Assembly (NCBI RefSeq): GCF_988243305.1
Contig: NZ_OZ547137.1
Length of the DNA stretch: 64,000 nt
Source: a plasmid
Strand: one strand, 5' to 3'
The position numbers are program-made. This document shows positions 39,901 through 46,982 of the stretch, one piece after another (the stretch's first letter is position 1; the number at the start of each line of letters is the position of its first letter).

Positions 39901-42900
39901 TTTGCCGGATATATCGTGGGATGGTGGGTATCATCGTCCATGGAAACGACATTCGTGCTGGATGCACTGGAGCAGGCGTTGTGGGCCCGTCGTCCGTCCG
40001 GCACCATCCATCACAGCGATAAAGGCTCTCAGTATGTGTCACTGGCCTATACGGAGCGACTAAAAGAAGCAAAACTGCTGGCATCAACAGGGAGTACAGG
40101 CGACTCGTATGACAACGCGATGGCGGAGAGCATCAATGGTCTTTACAAAGCGGAGGTAATACACCGTAAGAGCTGGAAAAAACGTGCAGAAGTGGAACTG
40201 GCCACACTCACGTGGGTGGACTGGTATAACAATCGACGATTGCTGGGAAGGCTGAGGCATACTCCTCCGGCAGAAGCAGAAAAAGCGTATTATGCTTCCA
40301 TCGGAAATGATGAGCTGGCAGCCTGAGTTCACAGATAAAACACTCTCCAGGAAAACCGGGGCGGTTCAGTGAGATCATCGTCCCCTCCCGGTCAGTTCAC
40401 GGATCAACACTGTGAGCAGCTCTGGTGAAGGATTTTCCAGCGTCATGTTACCGTGACGGAACTCAACCTTACAGGAGCTGGCACTGACTGTGGTCTGAGT
40501 AGATAAAGACGGAGTAAGAGCAGCCACCGGTTCTTTCGGTTCATCCGGCGTTATCTCCACAGGTAATAATTCAACGCCAGTGTCAGAAGAGGTTGTTACC
40601 GGAAGACGCCGCGATATACGCCCTTCATTCTGCCAGAGCCTGAGCCATTTGAACAGCAGGTTATCATTGATATCGTGTTCCCGGGCAATACGGGCAACAG
40701 AGGCTCCTGGTTGTAAAGCCAGTTTAACCATTTGAAGTTTAAACTTATTTGAAAATGATCTGCGGGGTTCTGCGGATAATGCTTTCTGTTCCATAACAGG
40801 TGTCTAACTATTGGGGCGCACTTCAGTTGAAAAGGTGGGCACCTAAGTTACCAATACTGGCTTAATGGCTACATACGGCGGTCAGTTTACGCTTACTTCA
40901 TGACCTGATGAAAAGACCTGTCCGGGGCTTTGACATCCACCAGGGCCTGAAGGACGAGGCTTTACGGTGCACCCGATAAAGAACAACAGACACCCCGGAA
41001 AGTGTCTGTTATGTTCTGCGCTTCTTGCTTTATTTCAGTATCACGACAGGAATATTTTCCGCGTGAGATATGAAGTAATTAACCATAAGCATCTGTTATT
41101 TATCAGAAAAATACTGCATTTATAATCAGCAGCGTGACTGTACCTGACGCCCATAATATGGTTGAGGTTATGCTCCAGACCCGGATCTGTTCCTGTACTT
41201 CGGTAACCCCCAGAGAACGGTTTACAACCCAGAAGTAGGCATCGTTAAAATAGGAGAACATGAAAGAACCAATCGTACAGCCAAGACCGGCAATGATTGG
41301 ATCAACACCCAGTGTACCGATCATCGGCGCGGTGATGCTGGCCGCGGTAATCATCGCCACGGCACCGGACCCCTGGATAAGGCGGATAAGCGTGGACAGG
41401 AGTAAAGGCAACAGTACACCGGGAACGCCAATTTTAACGATATAACCTGCAATCATATTGGCGGCACCGGAATCCCTCAGAACCATCCCCAGAGCACCAC
41501 CTCCTCCAATCAGCAGTAAAATGATACCAGCCGATCGGATAGCATTGTCCATACTGTGGGTCACTTCTTCTCGCGCATAATGACTTCCGAGGCCAATAAC
41601 CGCAATCAGAAGTCCACATCCCACAGCCACGACCGGGTGCCCGATGGTGATGAACATTCTTGATACCGTCCCCTGCCAGTGACCAGCCCATGTATCTGCA
41701 ATGCCGCTTTCCCGGAAGAATGTCGCCAGCAGGATCAAAATAATCGGCACAAACAAAGGCGCGAAGGAAATCAGTGTGCCAGGAAGTTGCTCATCTTCCT
41801 GTGGGTTTAGCACGGGAACAGCCTGCCATTCACGGGTAAAGCCTTCGCCATCTTCCGTTGGCACAATAAAAATGCGTTTTCCCAGCCATGTGGTATAGAT
41901 AAATCCGCACAGCGTGACCGGAATGGCAACCAGCATGCTCCAGAGCATGAATGTCCCTATCGGCATATCAAACTGAGAGGCTACACCGAAAGGCCCCACC
42001 GCCGGAGGGATCATACTGTGGCTGATAACCAAGCCGGCTGCCAGTGTTGCTCCCAGGCCGACAATTGACTTTCCACTGGTACGTGAAAGCGACTTAACAA
42101 GCGGTGTCAGAACAACAAATGCTGAGTCGCAGAATACGGCCATTGAAACAATAAGACCAATCAGGACAAGTGCGAGTTCTTCACGCTCTTTACCCAGCAC
42201 CCGGATAAAGGTCTGAGCCATTTTTCTGGACGCGCCGCTGAGCTGAAGCAAAGCCCCCATCATTACACCAAACCCGATAACGATGCCGATATTACCCAGT
42301 GTTCCGCCAAATCCTTTCGTAATAGACTGAATCATCAGGTCACTCTTCATCCCTCCTAATGAACCCGTAATGATGGCGGCGATAATCAGAGCGGGAAAGG
42401 TGGATATCCGGGTTTTCAGTATCATAAACAACAGGGCTGCAATGGCAACAAGCAGACCACCAATAACATGCGAACTTTCCAGTTCACTGCTACCGTGGCT
42501 TCCTATATAGAAAATAACCAGACCTATAATCAGTATTACAATGCCTTTTAACCTAGGGCTTAATGAATATCTGCCCGTTACTTTTATATTTTCAGACATA
42601 ATAATTTTATCCTTCTTAAATACAGTCAGTTCTGTATTTAATGATGCAGTCATAGGCACTCCCGCTTAATAAGCGGGAGTTATGTTACCGATTACTGTTT
42701 GCTGAAGCAGGGTGCATATAGCGCTGCCAGCCGGACAGCTTCAATCATACTGACAGGGTCTGCGATCCCTTTTCCTGCAATGTCATTGGCAGTACCGTGG
42801 TCGACGGACGTACGCAGGATGGGCATACCATTGGTGATAGATATCGTGCGATGAAAATCCACCATCTTGGTCGCGATATGTCCCTGATCATGGTAGGGGG

Positions 42901-45900: not shown

Positions 45901-46982
45901 GTATTATGCCATCAGTACAACACGATGCCTCTGCAGGCATTATCACACAGGCCAGGAATATACTGGCCAGCGAAGCACAGAGCCTCCTGGAGGCCATTCC
46001 GACGATCGGAGAATCCTTTGCAAGAGCCATTCGTTTACTGGTTGATACCAGAGGACGTGTGATTGTGACGGGTATGGGAAAGCCCGGGTATATTGCGCAT
46101 AAAATATCTGCCACTCTGGCCAGTACAGGTACCCCCTCGTTTTATCTCCATCCGGCAGAAGCAGCACATGGGGACCTGGGGATGGTGACATCATCTGACG
46201 TCATTCTGGCGTTGTCCAACAGCGGGGAAACACCGGAAATACTGGCGTTGCTGCCTGTGCTGAAAAGGATTGGTCTCCCGATTATTTCACTCTGTGGTAA
46301 TGAAAACTCCACCCTTGCAAAACACAGCGATGTGTTTCTCAGTGCGGCTGTTAAACAGGAAAGTTGTCCCTTAAATCTGGCACCTACAAACAGCACTACC
46401 CTGTCACTTTCTCTGGGAGATGCGATGGCAGTTATTCTGATGAATATCCGAAAGTTCAAAAAGGAGGATTTTGCGTTTTACCATCCCGGCGGAGCATTAG
46501 GTAAACGGCTCCTGACGACGGTCCGGGATATTATGAAATCCGGAGATAACTGTTGTGCAGTGGATCAATCAACATCAATTCTGGATACACTGTTCGCCAT
46601 GACGTCATGTAAGACCGGTGCTGCTTCAGTGATGGATGCTCGCTGTGAGCTCACTGGCATTGTTACCGATGGTGATATCAGGCGGTACGTGATGTACAAC
46701 AACCTGTTCCTTAATAACCCGGTGACTGAAGTCATGACGTCATCACCGGTCTGGATTTATGAAGATGAACTGGTAGAAGTGGCTATCAGGAAGATGCAGC
46801 AAAACAGCCCTTCTCCGGTCTCGGTTCTACCCGTTCTGAACAGAAACCGGAAGGTGACCGGGATAATCAACCTCGCCGATATGCTGAAAAGTGGCTTTCT
46901 GTAATTTCAGGTCTGACGTTTCTGTCAGACCCCTGCAAGGTGAATTTGTCGTGGCACAGAAGAGGCAGGACTGTAGTGGTCA

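What the first reader, a model, noticed from the sequence alone, without database searches (positions are those of the whole stretch)
41103..46904. Tetronate-type catabolic cluster: DUF1537 kinase, PdxA2-like dehydrogenase, GntP permease, DeoR regulator, KpsF-like isomerase
A DUF1537 four-carbon acid-sugar kinase co-occurring with a PdxA-family dehydrogenase is the hallmark of D-threonate / erythronate-type pathways as recalled. Here they sit with a GntP-family permease and DeoR regulator, plus a divergently transcribed SIS/CBS isomerase. The cluster is bounded by IS66 and IS3-family elements, so it is mobile cargo. Substrate specificity cannot be read from sequence.
Basis: partly seen in the sequence, partly recalled or inferred. 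Interest (0 to 1): 0.4.

Follow-up and report, generated by a model that had tools for sequence, protein, structure and literature searches.

The report
Plasmid-borne four-carbon sugar-acid utilisation operon
An E. coli F-type plasmid carries a compact, intact five-gene unit that most likely lets the cell import a four-carbon sugar acid (D-threonate or D-erythronate) and turn it into a glycolytic intermediate; it is an ordinary kind of pathway, and its one unusual feature is a conserved extra copy of an enzyme normally used for outer-membrane sugar synthesis.

Summary
Five intact genes lie at 41103-46904: an operon deoR, DUF1537 kinase, PdxA-family dehydrogenase, GntP permease on the minus strand, and a divergent SIS+CBS (KpsF/GutQ-family) gene. 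The DNA is 100% identical to E. coli IncFIA/FIB plasmids and occurs in 26 of 5,426 complete E. coli genomes, always on a plasmid.

In 80 species genomes the closest kinase relatives sit beside a PdxA homologue in 78, usually with a GntP permease and a DeoR regulator. So the core is a widespread, mostly Firmicutes, two-enzyme cassette. Its nearest characterised relatives are D-threonate kinase (DtnK) and PdxA2, but the curated score cut-offs for those exact functions are not met.

The isomerase gene accompanies the cassette only in Enterobacterales and Gilliamella, always divergent. It is under purifying selection and keeps all five residues I recall as catalytic in E. coli KdsD.

The shared control region holds a perfect CRP site and clustered ATTCACA repeats.

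Most likely function: uptake, phosphorylation at C4, then oxidative decarboxylation to DHAP. The isomerase's role is unexplained. The exact substrate is untested. This is a modest variant of a known kind.

The parts
41103..42653 (-). GntP-family permease (516 aa), last gene of the operon; predicted importer of the acid sugar
   Evidence: Pfam GntP_permease, 341.9 bits over residues 66-513. NCBIfam gntP subfamily scores 280 bits, just under its 292.75 cut-off. It is 26% identical to E. coli YgbN, the transporter of the tetronate cluster. dN/dS is 0.04 against the Salmonella plasmid copy.
42692..43690 (-). PdxA2-type NAD-dependent decarboxylating dehydrogenase (332 aa)
   Evidence: NF002992 scores 486 bits (cut-off 470). 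D-threonate-4-P dehydrogenase NF002891 scores 267.7, below its 583 cut-off. PDB matches: Salmonella PdxA2 2hi1 237.5 bits and 6e85 232.8 bits, against E. coli PdxA 158.5 bits. It is 31% identical to E. coli PdxA. H138, H168, H212, H267, D248 and D268 align with E. coli H136, H166, H211, H266, D247 and D267.
43713..45014 (-). DUF1537 acid-sugar kinase (433 aa)
   Evidence: PF07005 + PF17042. Best NCBIfam model is D-threonate kinase, 253.6 bits (cut-off 450); OtnK scores 133 (cut-off 350). Best solved structure is 4xfm, which itself scores as DtnK at 613.9 bits. It is 27% identical to E. coli YgbK. The ADDLTGAN and RIDSTLRGN motifs are invariant.
45047..45754 (-). DeoR/GlpR-family repressor (235 aa), first gene of the operon
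   Evidence: Full-length matches to AgaR, GlpR, YgbI and SrlR models, all below their equivalog cut-offs. The same position and order is seen in most related loci. dN/dS is 0.07.
45755..45905 (.). 151-bp divergent control region
   Evidence: The block ATGTGAA-N4-AnTCACA-n-ATTCACA is conserved in six Enterobacterales loci while the rest of the spacer diverges.
45821..45836 (.). Perfect CRP consensus TGTGA-N6-TCACA, about 75 nt from each start codon
   Evidence: It is one of only 2 perfect matches in the 64 kb window, where 0.15 are expected. The site is conserved in Raoultella and Cedecea.
45830..45875 (+). Cluster of ATTCACA repeats, candidate DeoR operator
   Evidence: Three of the window's nine ATTCACA heptamers fall in these 46 nt. 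A 22-nt direct repeat and an 8-nt inverted repeat are also present.
45906..46904 (+). KpsF/GutQ-family SIS + 2xCBS protein (332 aa), predicted arabinose-5-phosphate isomerase paralogue
   Evidence: TIGR00393 scores 309.7 (cut-off 203.7); KdsD scores 309 (cut-off 505) and GutQ 282 (cut-off 481). Pfam finds SIS and CBS domains. It aligns without gaps to the E. coli KdsD SIS domain. It is 41% identical to KdsD and 38% to GutQ, with K59, H88, E111, E152 and H193 invariant. dN/dS is 0.10.
40983..41012 (-). Terminator-like hairpin about 90 nt downstream of the permease stop (candidate only)
   Evidence: A 13-pair stem followed by a T-rich tail. It straddles the edge of the block shared with the Salmonella plasmids.
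39058..40380 (+). IS3-family (IS1203-like) element, left flank
   Evidence: IS3 transposase fragments. ALIL frameshift pseudoknot at 39393-39509. It is 93-96% identical to IS1203-like copies in many E. coli genomes. The right end (~40380) is approximate.
40375..40794 (-). IS66 accessory TnpA remnant
   Evidence: NF047595 scores 87 bits (cut-off 74).
46980..48193 (-). IS3-family element, right flank
   Evidence: NF033516 scores 270 bits. Annotated as an IS3 family transposase.
48230..49142 (-). Partial inverted copy of the left IS3 element
   Evidence: Inverted repeats of 821 nt (100%) and 92 nt (98%) with 39058-39971.

Best explanation
This is a self-contained, plasmid-carried catabolic unit for an exogenous four-carbon aldonic acid. 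D-threonate is the most likely substrate and D-erythronate the next.

Proposed steps (all inferred from homology and context):
1. The GntP-family permease imports the acid.
2. The DUF1537 kinase phosphorylates it at C4 with ATP.
3. The PdxA2-type enzyme oxidises C3 with NAD+, and the resulting beta-keto acid loses CO2 to give dihydroxyacetone phosphate, which enters glycolysis.

Proposed regulation (inferred):
- The DeoR-family protein represses the operon through the ATTCACA repeats until a phosphorylated intermediate appears.
- cAMP-CRP, bound at the central TGTGA-N6-TCACA site, activates the two divergent promoters.

The divergent KpsF/GutQ-family gene encodes an arabinose-5-phosphate/ribulose-5-phosphate isomerase paralogue. 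It is co-regulated from the same control region and plays an accessory role, not a catabolic one.

Shown here: gene content, family membership, conserved catalytic residues, conserved gene order, purifying selection, conserved control motifs, and plasmid location.

Inferred: substrate, reaction chemistry, effector, regulation, and the role of the isomerase.
For: - Family assignments.
- The nearest curated model and nearest solved structure of the kinase are both D-threonate kinase.
- The dehydrogenase scores higher against PdxA2 and D-threonate-4-P dehydrogenase structures (237.5 and 232.8 bits) than against E. coli PdxA (158.5 bits; 31% identity). The residues that align with E. coli PdxA's metal-binding histidines are conserved.
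- Among the 80 best-matching species-genome loci, kinase and PdxA are adjacent in 78. Most also carry a GntP permease or, in Vallitalea, a TRAP transporter, plus a DeoR regulator. Usually no other enzyme is present, so two enzymes must suffice to reach central metabolism.
- There is no class II aldolase, LtnD/DenD or OtnI gene, which rules out the Otn route.
- In Leminorella the unit lies directly beside a ygbI-J-K-L-M-type tetronate cluster.
- All five genes have dN/dS of 0.04-0.10 against a 91%-identical Salmonella plasmid copy.
- The five-gene unit is intact on three different plasmid backbones and on the chromosomes of Pluralibacter, Raoultella, Pragia, Leminorella and Gilliamella. In Cedecea the unit is also present, but the SIS protein lacks its CBS domains.
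- The CRP site and repeat cluster are conserved.
- Literature: DtnK and DenK are characterised DUF1537 kinases (PMC10971088).
Against: - No member of this particular kinase/PdxA subfamily, which includes the large Firmicutes cassette, has been characterised as far as I could find.
- The kinase scores 253.6 bits against the 450 cut-off for DtnK. The dehydrogenase scores 267.7 against 583 for D-threonate-4-P dehydrogenase.
- The dehydrogenase does pass two legacy 'PdxA' equivalog models.
- Identity to the structurally characterised kinases appears low, judging from the modest scores (61-117 bits); I did not compute it.
- The pathway as proposed has no need for an isomerase, so part of the conserved unit is unexplained.
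Confidence: 0.62

Rival explanations
1. The substrate is not a C4 aldonate. It is another acid sugar (C5 or C6, or a branched or keto acid). The KpsF-like enzyme would then be a true pathway step that isomerises the phosphorylated product or substrate.
For: - The isomerase is conserved with the cassette, divergent and apparently co-regulated, throughout Enterobacterales and Gilliamella.
- The DtnK, OtnK and D-threonate-4-P dehydrogenase cut-offs are all missed.
- GntP permeases typically carry C6 acids.
- The module-linked isomerases have their own substitutions next to K59 (MGKPGYIAHK against KdsD MGKSGHIGRK) and their own CBS insertion.
Against: - The same cassette works without any isomerase in Orbus and in about 70 Firmicutes, Spirochaete and Succinivibrio loci.
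- All five residues I recall as catalytic in E. coli KdsD are kept.
- By my own reasoning, oxidative decarboxylation of a 6-phospho-hexonate would give a pentulose-5-P, which needs no arabinose-5-P isomerase.
- Characterised DUF1537 kinases act on tetronates or 3-oxo-isoapionate, and the OiaK model scores only 29 bits.
Confidence: 0.15
2. The kinase/PdxA pair is a salvage or detoxification device for 4-hydroxy-L-threonine. It would feed 4-phosphohydroxy-L-threonine into PLP synthesis, as shown for Salmonella STM0162/PdxA2.
For: - The protein passes two NCBIfam 'PdxA' equivalogs (NF002992 at 486 bits, cut-off 470; TIGR00557 at 297.6, cut-off 290.35).
- STM0162 phosphorylates 4-hydroxy-L-threonine, and PdxA2 can perform the PdxA reaction (PMC10971088 and PMC9997740).
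Against: - The unit has a dedicated high-capacity permease, a DeoR repressor and a CRP site, which is the layout of a carbon-source operon.
- E. coli already has pdxA, which is only 31% identical.
- NF002992 also captures the cassette dehydrogenases of Terrisporobacter, Parageobacillus and Succinivibrio at 512-573 bits. It therefore models the kinase-linked family, not true PdxA.
Confidence: 0.08
3. The isomerase is functionally unrelated to the operon. It would be a spare KdsD/KpsF copy for LPS or capsule that happens to sit beside it.
For: - It looks like a standard arabinose-5-phosphate isomerase.
- E. coli is known to carry redundant isomerase paralogues of unclear need, such as GutQ (PMC10448790) and the GutQ-like ORF in genomic region GR19 of strain BEN2908 (PMC12928451).
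Against: - Every relative of this isomerase with at least 48% identity whose context I examined is next to the cassette, in the same divergent position, across unrelated flanking contexts.
- It shares a conserved 151-bp control region with the operon.
- No kds, lpt or kps genes are nearby.
Confidence: 0.1

Closest known systems
D-threonate pathway DtnK + PdxA2 (Salmonella STM0162/STM0163, Pectobacterium ECA3761; Zhang et al. 2016, recalled from memory; cited in PMC10971088)
   Same: - DUF1537 kinase adjacent to a PdxA-family decarboxylating dehydrogenase, with no aldolase.
- The DtnK model is the kinase's best NCBIfam hit, aligned end to end.
- 4xfm, which scores as DtnK, is the best solved structure.
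- PdxA2 structures are among the best dehydrogenase matches, a little behind 4jqp (248.5 bits).
   Different: - Scores are far below the equivalog cut-offs (253.6 against 450; 267.7 against 583).
- The kinase belongs to a separate, largely Firmicutes subfamily that is 35-45% identical to it.
- The transporter is a GntP permease.
- A KpsF/GutQ-family gene is attached.
E. coli K-12 ygbI-ygbJKLMN (LtnD/OtnI/OtnK/OtnC tetronate cluster)
   Same: A DeoR-family repressor, a DUF1537 kinase and a GntP-family transporter serving C4 acid sugars, with DHAP as the end product (PMC12540250).
   Different: - The kinase is only 27% identical and the permease 26%.
- This module has no dehydrogenase, isomerase or class II aldolase genes; decarboxylation is done by a PdxA-type enzyme instead.
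- In Leminorella both clusters lie side by side, which argues for different substrates.
GutQ of the E. coli glucitol operon, and other arabinose-5-phosphate isomerase paralogues attached to catabolic loci
   Same: - A KpsF/GutQ-family isomerase embedded in a sugar-catabolic locus that is controlled by a DeoR-family repressor (SrlR) and has no chemical need for it.
- GutQ is associated with regulation of the gut operon (PMC10448790).
- The catalytic residues are identical.
   Different: - Only 38% identical to GutQ.
- Divergently transcribed, not the last gene of the operon.
- Attached to an acid-sugar kinase/PdxA2 cassette.
- Carries its own CBS-domain insertion.
KdsD (housekeeping arabinose-5-phosphate isomerase for Kdo/LPS)
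   Same: SIS + 2 CBS architecture. Ungapped alignment over the SIS domain. K59, H88, E111, E152 and H193 are conserved.
   Different: 41% identity. KdsD equivalog score is 309 against a cut-off of 505. Not in the yrbG-kdsDC-lptCAB context. Plasmid-borne.

Membership tests
DUF1537 acid-sugar kinase family | Two-domain architecture SBD_N (PF07005) + NBD_C (PF17042) | tested here: met
   PF07005 at 203.9 bits over residues 4-224; PF17042 at 72.8 bits over residues 241-412.
DUF1537 acid-sugar kinase family | Conserved N-terminal ADDxTGA and (K/R)IDSTLRGN motifs | tested here: met
   Both are invariant in the 13-sequence alignment A1.
D-threonate kinase DtnK (NCBIfam NF047819 equivalog) | Whole-protein score at or above the curated cut-off of 450 bits | tested here: not met
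   253.6 bits, although it is the best model and aligns 1-423 to 1-420 of 422. Genuine DtnK 4xfm scores 613.9.
3-oxo-tetronate kinase OtnK (NF043035) | Score at or above 350 bits, and a neighbouring class II aldolase OtnC | tested here: not met
   133 bits. No aldolase gene in the unit. 27% identical to YgbK.
DUF1537/PdxA two-enzyme tetronate route | Kinase gene adjacent to a PdxA-family decarboxylating dehydrogenase | tested here: met
   The two genes are 22 nt apart in the window. They are adjacent in 78 of 80 related loci.
DUF1537/PdxA two-enzyme tetronate route | ATP-dependent phosphorylation of D-threonate or D-erythronate, and formation of DHAP + CO2 | not testable with these tools
   Needs enzyme assays or growth tests.
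PdxA2 (4-phospho-D-threonate/erythronate 3-dehydrogenase) | PdxA fold with conserved metal-binding and catalytic histidines | tested here: met
   H138, H168, H212 and H267 align with E. coli PdxA H136, H166, H211 and H266. The assignment of roles to these residues is from memory (Sivaraman et al. 2003).
PdxA2 (4-phospho-D-threonate/erythronate 3-dehydrogenase) | Closer to PdxA2 than to biosynthetic PdxA | tested here: met
   2hi1 237.5 bits and 6e85 232.8 bits, against E. coli PdxA 158.5 bits.
PdxA2 (4-phospho-D-threonate/erythronate 3-dehydrogenase) | NF002891 equivalog cut-off of 583 bits | tested here: not met
   267.7 bits.
Biosynthetic PdxA (PLP pathway) | Passes a PdxA equivalog and sits in a PLP-biosynthesis context | tested here: inconclusive
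   It passes NF002992 (486 against 470) and TIGR00557 (297.6 against 290.35). However, NF002992 equally captures kinase-linked cassette proteins of Firmicutes and Succinivibrio. The context here is a transporter/kinase operon, and identity to E. coli PdxA is only 31%.
KpsF/GutQ arabinose-5-phosphate isomerase family | SIS domain followed by a CBS pair; TIGR00393 at or above 203.7 bits | tested here: met
   309.7 bits. Pfam finds SIS plus two CBS domains, the first CBS hit being weak (E = 0.017).
KpsF/GutQ arabinose-5-phosphate isomerase family | Catalytic residues K59, H88, E111, E152 and H193 (E. coli KdsD numbering; list from memory, Gourlay et al. 2010) | tested here: met
   All five are invariant in alignment A2, which includes KdsD and GutQ.
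KdsD / GutQ / KpsF as specific orthologues | Equivalog score and characteristic gene neighbourhood (kdsC-lpt; srl/gut operon; kps region 1) | tested here: not met
   KdsD 309 against 505 and GutQ 282 against 481. The neighbours are the DeoR/kinase operon and IS elements.
KpsF/GutQ arabinose-5-phosphate isomerase family | A5P/Ru5P interconversion activity | not testable with these tools
   Needs an assay, or complementation of a kdsD gutQ double mutant.
GntP permease family | PF02447 over the full membrane domain | tested here: met
   341.9 bits over residues 66-513. The TIGR00791 subfamily score is 280.3, just below its 292.75 cut-off.
Composite transposon | Module bracketed by two copies of one IS, and moving together with them | tested here: inconclusive
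   Inverted IS3 copies do bracket 39972-48229. But the right copy is truncated, and the module occurs without these IS elements on Salmonella plasmids and on chromosomes.

The most novel reading that the evidence does not exclude
The attached isomerase is an 'antidote' carried by the operon against its own intermediate. 4-Phospho-D-erythronate, and possibly 4-phospho-D-threonate, mimics the enediolate intermediate of pentose-phosphate isomerases.

Support for the inhibitor chemistry:
- Inhibition of ribose-5-P isomerase is documented (Woodruff & Wolfenden 1979, seen in a reference list).
- 4-Phosphoerythronate blocks the oxidative pentose phosphate pathway (PMC13220862).
- Inhibition of arabinose-5-P isomerase by erythronate 4-phosphate is my recollection of Bigham et al. 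1984. I could not verify it here.

The proposal: high flux through the kinase would starve Kdo/LPS synthesis, and a co-induced, perhaps less sensitive, isomerase would keep it going. If correct, this would also point to D-erythronate as the substrate.
Probability: 0.15. Interest if true: 0.6.

Novelty: new variant of a known kind. Interest (0 to 1): 0.3.

Why it matters
Threonate and erythronate arise from ascorbate and sugar oxidation. From general knowledge, not tested here, they are also present in urine and gut contents.

A conjugative F-type plasmid that adds a ready-regulated route from such acids to DHAP could give human-associated E. coli a small nutritional edge. The isolates carrying it come from urine, blood, stool and sewage. 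It would be a clean example of plasmids spreading metabolic traits as well as resistance traits.

The analysis has three wider uses.
- It shows that a large cassette family, widespread in gut Firmicutes, is still named 'PdxA' by a legacy model.
- It shows that no member of this family has been assayed, as far as I could find.
- It adds a further case to an unexplained pattern: arabinose-5-phosphate isomerase paralogues attached to catabolic operons. This case is easy to test genetically, because natural versions exist with and without the isomerase.

Tried and rejected
- **Zhang et al. 2016 (PMC4961189).** I tried to read it for the family network and neighbourhood data, but it is not held. 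Statements about it rest on memory and on papers that cite it.
- **Papers on this plasmid module.** Searches found nothing specific.
- **KdsD catalytic residues and isomerase inhibition by erythronate phosphate.** Searches found nothing usable. Both points stay marked as memory.
- **'The isomerase is there because Gram-negatives need Kdo.'** Weakened. Other outer-membrane-bearing hosts of the cassette lack it within 6 kb: Succinivibrio, Selenomonas, Propionispora, spirochaetes and a deltaproteobacterium. Orbus also lacks it.
- **All TGTGAA/TTCACA repeats as the DeoR operator.** Revised. The first pair is a perfect CRP site. A different motif, TGTGAAAGTGTTAA, is conserved in Leminorella, Gilliamella and Orbus.
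- **The flanking inverted IS3 copies as the vehicle of the module.** Not supported. The same DNA block lies in IS-free contexts elsewhere.
- **Isomerase as a recent duplicate of the host kdsD.** Rejected: only 41% identity.
- **RNA elements inside the module.** Rfam found none; all hits are in the IS elements or elsewhere.
- **Promoter scan.** It gave fewer hits than shuffled sequence and none in the control region, so it is uninformative.

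
Full report
**What is there.** The interval 41103-46904 holds five intact genes with no room for anything else.
- On the minus strand, separated by only 22-32 nt, lie four genes in this order: a DeoR/GlpR-family regulator (45047-45754), a DUF1537 kinase (43713-45014), a PdxA-family dehydrogenase (42692-43690) and a GntP-family permease (41103-42653).
- On the plus strand, across a 151-bp spacer, lies a KpsF/GutQ-family gene with a SIS domain and CBS domains.
- Family assignments come from NCBIfam and Pfam.
ATG 45906 has a GAGAGGG ribosome-binding site, and orthologues start MPS.... 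GTG 45822 lies inside a regulatory site.

**Where it comes from.**
- The 6-kb block is 100% identical to E. coli IncFIA/IncFIB conjugative plasmids such as pNORD58_1.
- It is rare. It occurs in 26 of 5,426 complete E. coli genomes, always on a plasmid.
- Versions 91-97% identical lie on Salmonella, Citrobacter and other E. coli plasmids.
- On the two Salmonella plasmids I inspected, the neighbours are different (ccdAB/integrase and MgtC on one; integrase, an acetyltransferase and sopAB on the other), and no IS element is adjacent.
- The block shared with these plasmids runs from about 41002 to 46974, which is exactly the five genes.
- In the window the block is embedded in IS debris.
  - Left: IS4 and Tn3 fragments, an IS1203-like IS3 element and an IS66 TnpA remnant.
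  - Right: another IS3-family element, then a truncated inverted copy of the left IS3.
The IS elements look like later arrivals, not the vehicle.

**The core is a widespread cassette.**
- Close relatives of the kinase (57-98% identity) occur in Salmonella, Klebsiella, Pantoea, Pluralibacter, Cedecea, Leminorella, Pragia, Gilliamella and Orbus. Identity then drops to about 45% and below in Clostridia and many other anaerobes.
- I fetched the 80 best loci from one genome per species and searched them with the five window proteins.
  - A PdxA homologue (50-82% identical) lies next to the kinase in 78 of 80.
  - A GntP permease is present in most, and a DeoR regulator in most.
  - The commonest order is the same as here: deoR, kinase, pdxA, gntP.
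- Vallitalea replaces the permease with a TRAP transporter.
- No further enzyme is regularly present. Transporter, kinase and dehydrogenase must therefore be enough to deliver the substrate to central metabolism.

**What the two enzymes resemble.**
- The kinase's best curated model is D-threonate kinase, aligned end to end, at 253.6 bits against a cut-off of 450. The 3-oxo-tetronate kinase model gives 133 bits and the 3-oxo-isoapionate kinase model 29.
- Its best solved structure is 4xfm from Pectobacterium. The aligned portion of 4xfm itself scores 613.9 bits as D-threonate kinase.
- The kinase is only 27% identical to E. coli YgbK.
- The dehydrogenase scores 237.5 and 232.8 bits against Salmonella PdxA2 and a Klebsiella 'D-threonate 4-phosphate dehydrogenase', but 158.5 bits against E. 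coli PdxA, to which it is 31% identical.
- Its histidines H138, H168, H212 and H267 align with E. coli H136, H166, H211 and H266.
- It passes the NCBIfam model NF002992, named 'PdxA'. That model scores the kinase-linked proteins of Terrisporobacter, Parageobacillus and Succinivibrio even higher, at 512-573 bits. It therefore describes this cassette family, and the name is a legacy.
- PMC9997740 notes that PdxA2 is catabolic and hard to tell from PdxA by annotation.
- According to Zhang et al. 2016, the DUF1537/PdxA pair converts D-threonate to DHAP and CO2, and DtnK and DenK are characterised kinases. I could not open that paper; it is summarised in PMC10971088 and PMC12540250.
- The alternative Otn route needs a dehydrogenase, an isomerase and a class II aldolase, none of which is present here.
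- In Leminorella the module sits directly beside a ygbI-J-K-L-M-type Otn cluster. This fits a shared theme of C4 acids with different substrates.

**The isomerase is part of the unit, but only in one lineage.**
- The SIS/CBS gene lies in the same divergent position in every Enterobacterales and Gilliamella locus examined: the Salmonella plasmids, Pluralibacter, Raoultella, Cedecea, Pragia, Leminorella and four Gilliamella genomes. The surroundings are unrelated between them.
- It is absent from Orbus and from all roughly 70 more distant loci. These include hosts with an outer membrane, such as Succinivibrio, Selenomonas and Propionispora.
- Starting instead from the isomerase, its relatives above about 54% identity form a small Enterobacterales group. 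The one checked from that side, in Raoultella, is again beside the cassette.
- The gene is under purifying selection: dN/dS is 0.10 against a 91%-identical copy, compared with 0.04-0.07 for the other four genes.
- The protein aligns without gaps to the SIS domain of E. coli KdsD. It is 41% identical to KdsD and 38% to GutQ.
- It keeps K59, H88, E111, E152 and H193, the residues I recall as catalytic in KdsD.
- It misses the KdsD and GutQ equivalog cut-offs and has neither gene's neighbourhood.
- The module-linked proteins share their own features: MGKPGYIAHK next to K59, and a three-residue insertion plus a TDGDIRRYxMYNNLFL motif in the CBS pair.
- The Cedecea copy lacks the CBS pair.

**Control region.**
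- The 151-bp spacer contains a perfect CRP consensus, TGTGAACAGATTCACA, at 45821-45836. It is one of two perfect matches in 64 kb, where 0.15 are expected.
- Its centre lies about 75 nt from each start codon.
- Three of the window's nine ATTCACA heptamers lie within 45830-45875.
- The block ATGTGAA-N4-AnTCACA-n-ATTCACA survives in six Enterobacterales loci whose spacers are otherwise diverged.
- Leminorella, Gilliamella and Orbus keep a different motif, TGTGAAAGTGTTAA.
- I read this as catabolite control by CRP plus a DeoR operator shared by both promoters. That reading is an inference.

**Most likely mechanism and its limits.**
- The proposed route is import by the permease, phosphorylation at C4, oxidation at C3 with loss of CO2, and DHAP as product.
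- D-threonate is the first guess, because the nearest characterised proteins act on it. D-erythronate is the second.
- No member of this subfamily has been assayed as far as I could find. All exact-function cut-offs are missed.
- The isomerase is not needed by this chemistry. Its closest analogue is GutQ, an isomerase paralogue in the DeoR-regulated glucitol operon that is linked to regulation of that operon (PMC10448790).
- A more interesting possibility is that it protects Kdo synthesis from the phospho-tetronate intermediate, because 4-phosphoerythronate is a known inhibitor of pentose-phosphate enzymes. The absence of the gene from other outer-membrane-bearing hosts weakens the idea. The key inhibition datum for arabinose-5-P isomerase is from my memory only.

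**Verdict.** This is a known kind of catabolic system, in an uncharacterised subfamily, on a conjugative plasmid. It has one conserved and unexplained addition. Interest is modest.

Noticed in passing
window 49447-49462: This is the only other perfect CRP consensus in the window (TGTGATAAACATCACA). It lies at the start of the low-GC MalY/PatB C-S lyase + NhaC pair (49448-52184; GC 39-46%), another small cargo module.
   Followed up: no
window about 33400-38400: A 58-63% GC block encodes a UgpB-like sugar ABC transporter with a phosphodiesterase. Its composition differs sharply from the 43-50% GC tetronate module, so the plasmid's cargo region is a patchwork of imported metabolic units.
   Followed up: no
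window 39393-39509, 48691-48807, 55866-55982: Three ALIL pseudoknot matches (IS3 frameshift signals). The first two belong to the inverted IS1203-like copies that bracket the module.
   Followed up: partly
window 48039-48161 (-): A strong match to the Rfam isrC Hfq-binding sRNA model (142.5 bits), lying inside the IS3-family element to the right of the module.
   Followed up: no
window 53253-53339 (-): A match to the Rfam group II intron catalytic domain (64.9 bits).
   Followed up: no
L012 (QFQU01000034.1, 4.4-kb contig): A contig binned as a 'Brevundimonas sp.' metagenome-assembled genome carries the deoR-kinase-pdxA-gntP genes at 98-99% protein identity to the E. coli plasmid. This is most likely a binning contaminant and not a real alphaproteobacterial copy.
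   Followed up: no
L004/L005 12867-17332 (Leminorella grimontii): The five-gene module lies about 2.5 kb from a ygbI/J/K/L/M-type tetronate cluster (DeoR, NAD-binding dehydrogenase, second DUF1537 kinase, class II aldolase, AP-endonuclease-fold isomerase). Together they form a 'tetronate island'. The module's permease here belongs to a different GntP subfamily, 25% identical.
   Followed up: partly
L096 4467-5081 (Cedecea davisae): The module-linked isomerase is only 204 aa: a SIS domain with no CBS pair. From memory, this resembles the CBS-less isomerase c3406 of E. coli CFT073.
   Followed up: no
L010/L011 5172-6410: In a clostridial metagenome contig the kinase/PdxA pair follows a LarA-like (Lar_N) gene. 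From general knowledge, LarA relatives are 2-hydroxyacid racemases/epimerases, and D-threonate and D-erythronate are C2 epimers. This could widen the substrate range there.
   Followed up: no
L094 and L096 (Raoultella, Cedecea): In both genera the five-gene module is inserted at the same chromosomal site, between amino-acid ABC transporter genes (art-like, by my reading of the Pfam domains) and an SBP_bac_3 / tRNA-U5-methyltransferase-domain gene / YbjO-like / further ABC permease stretch. This suggests a single insertion inherited or exchanged between them.
   Followed up: no
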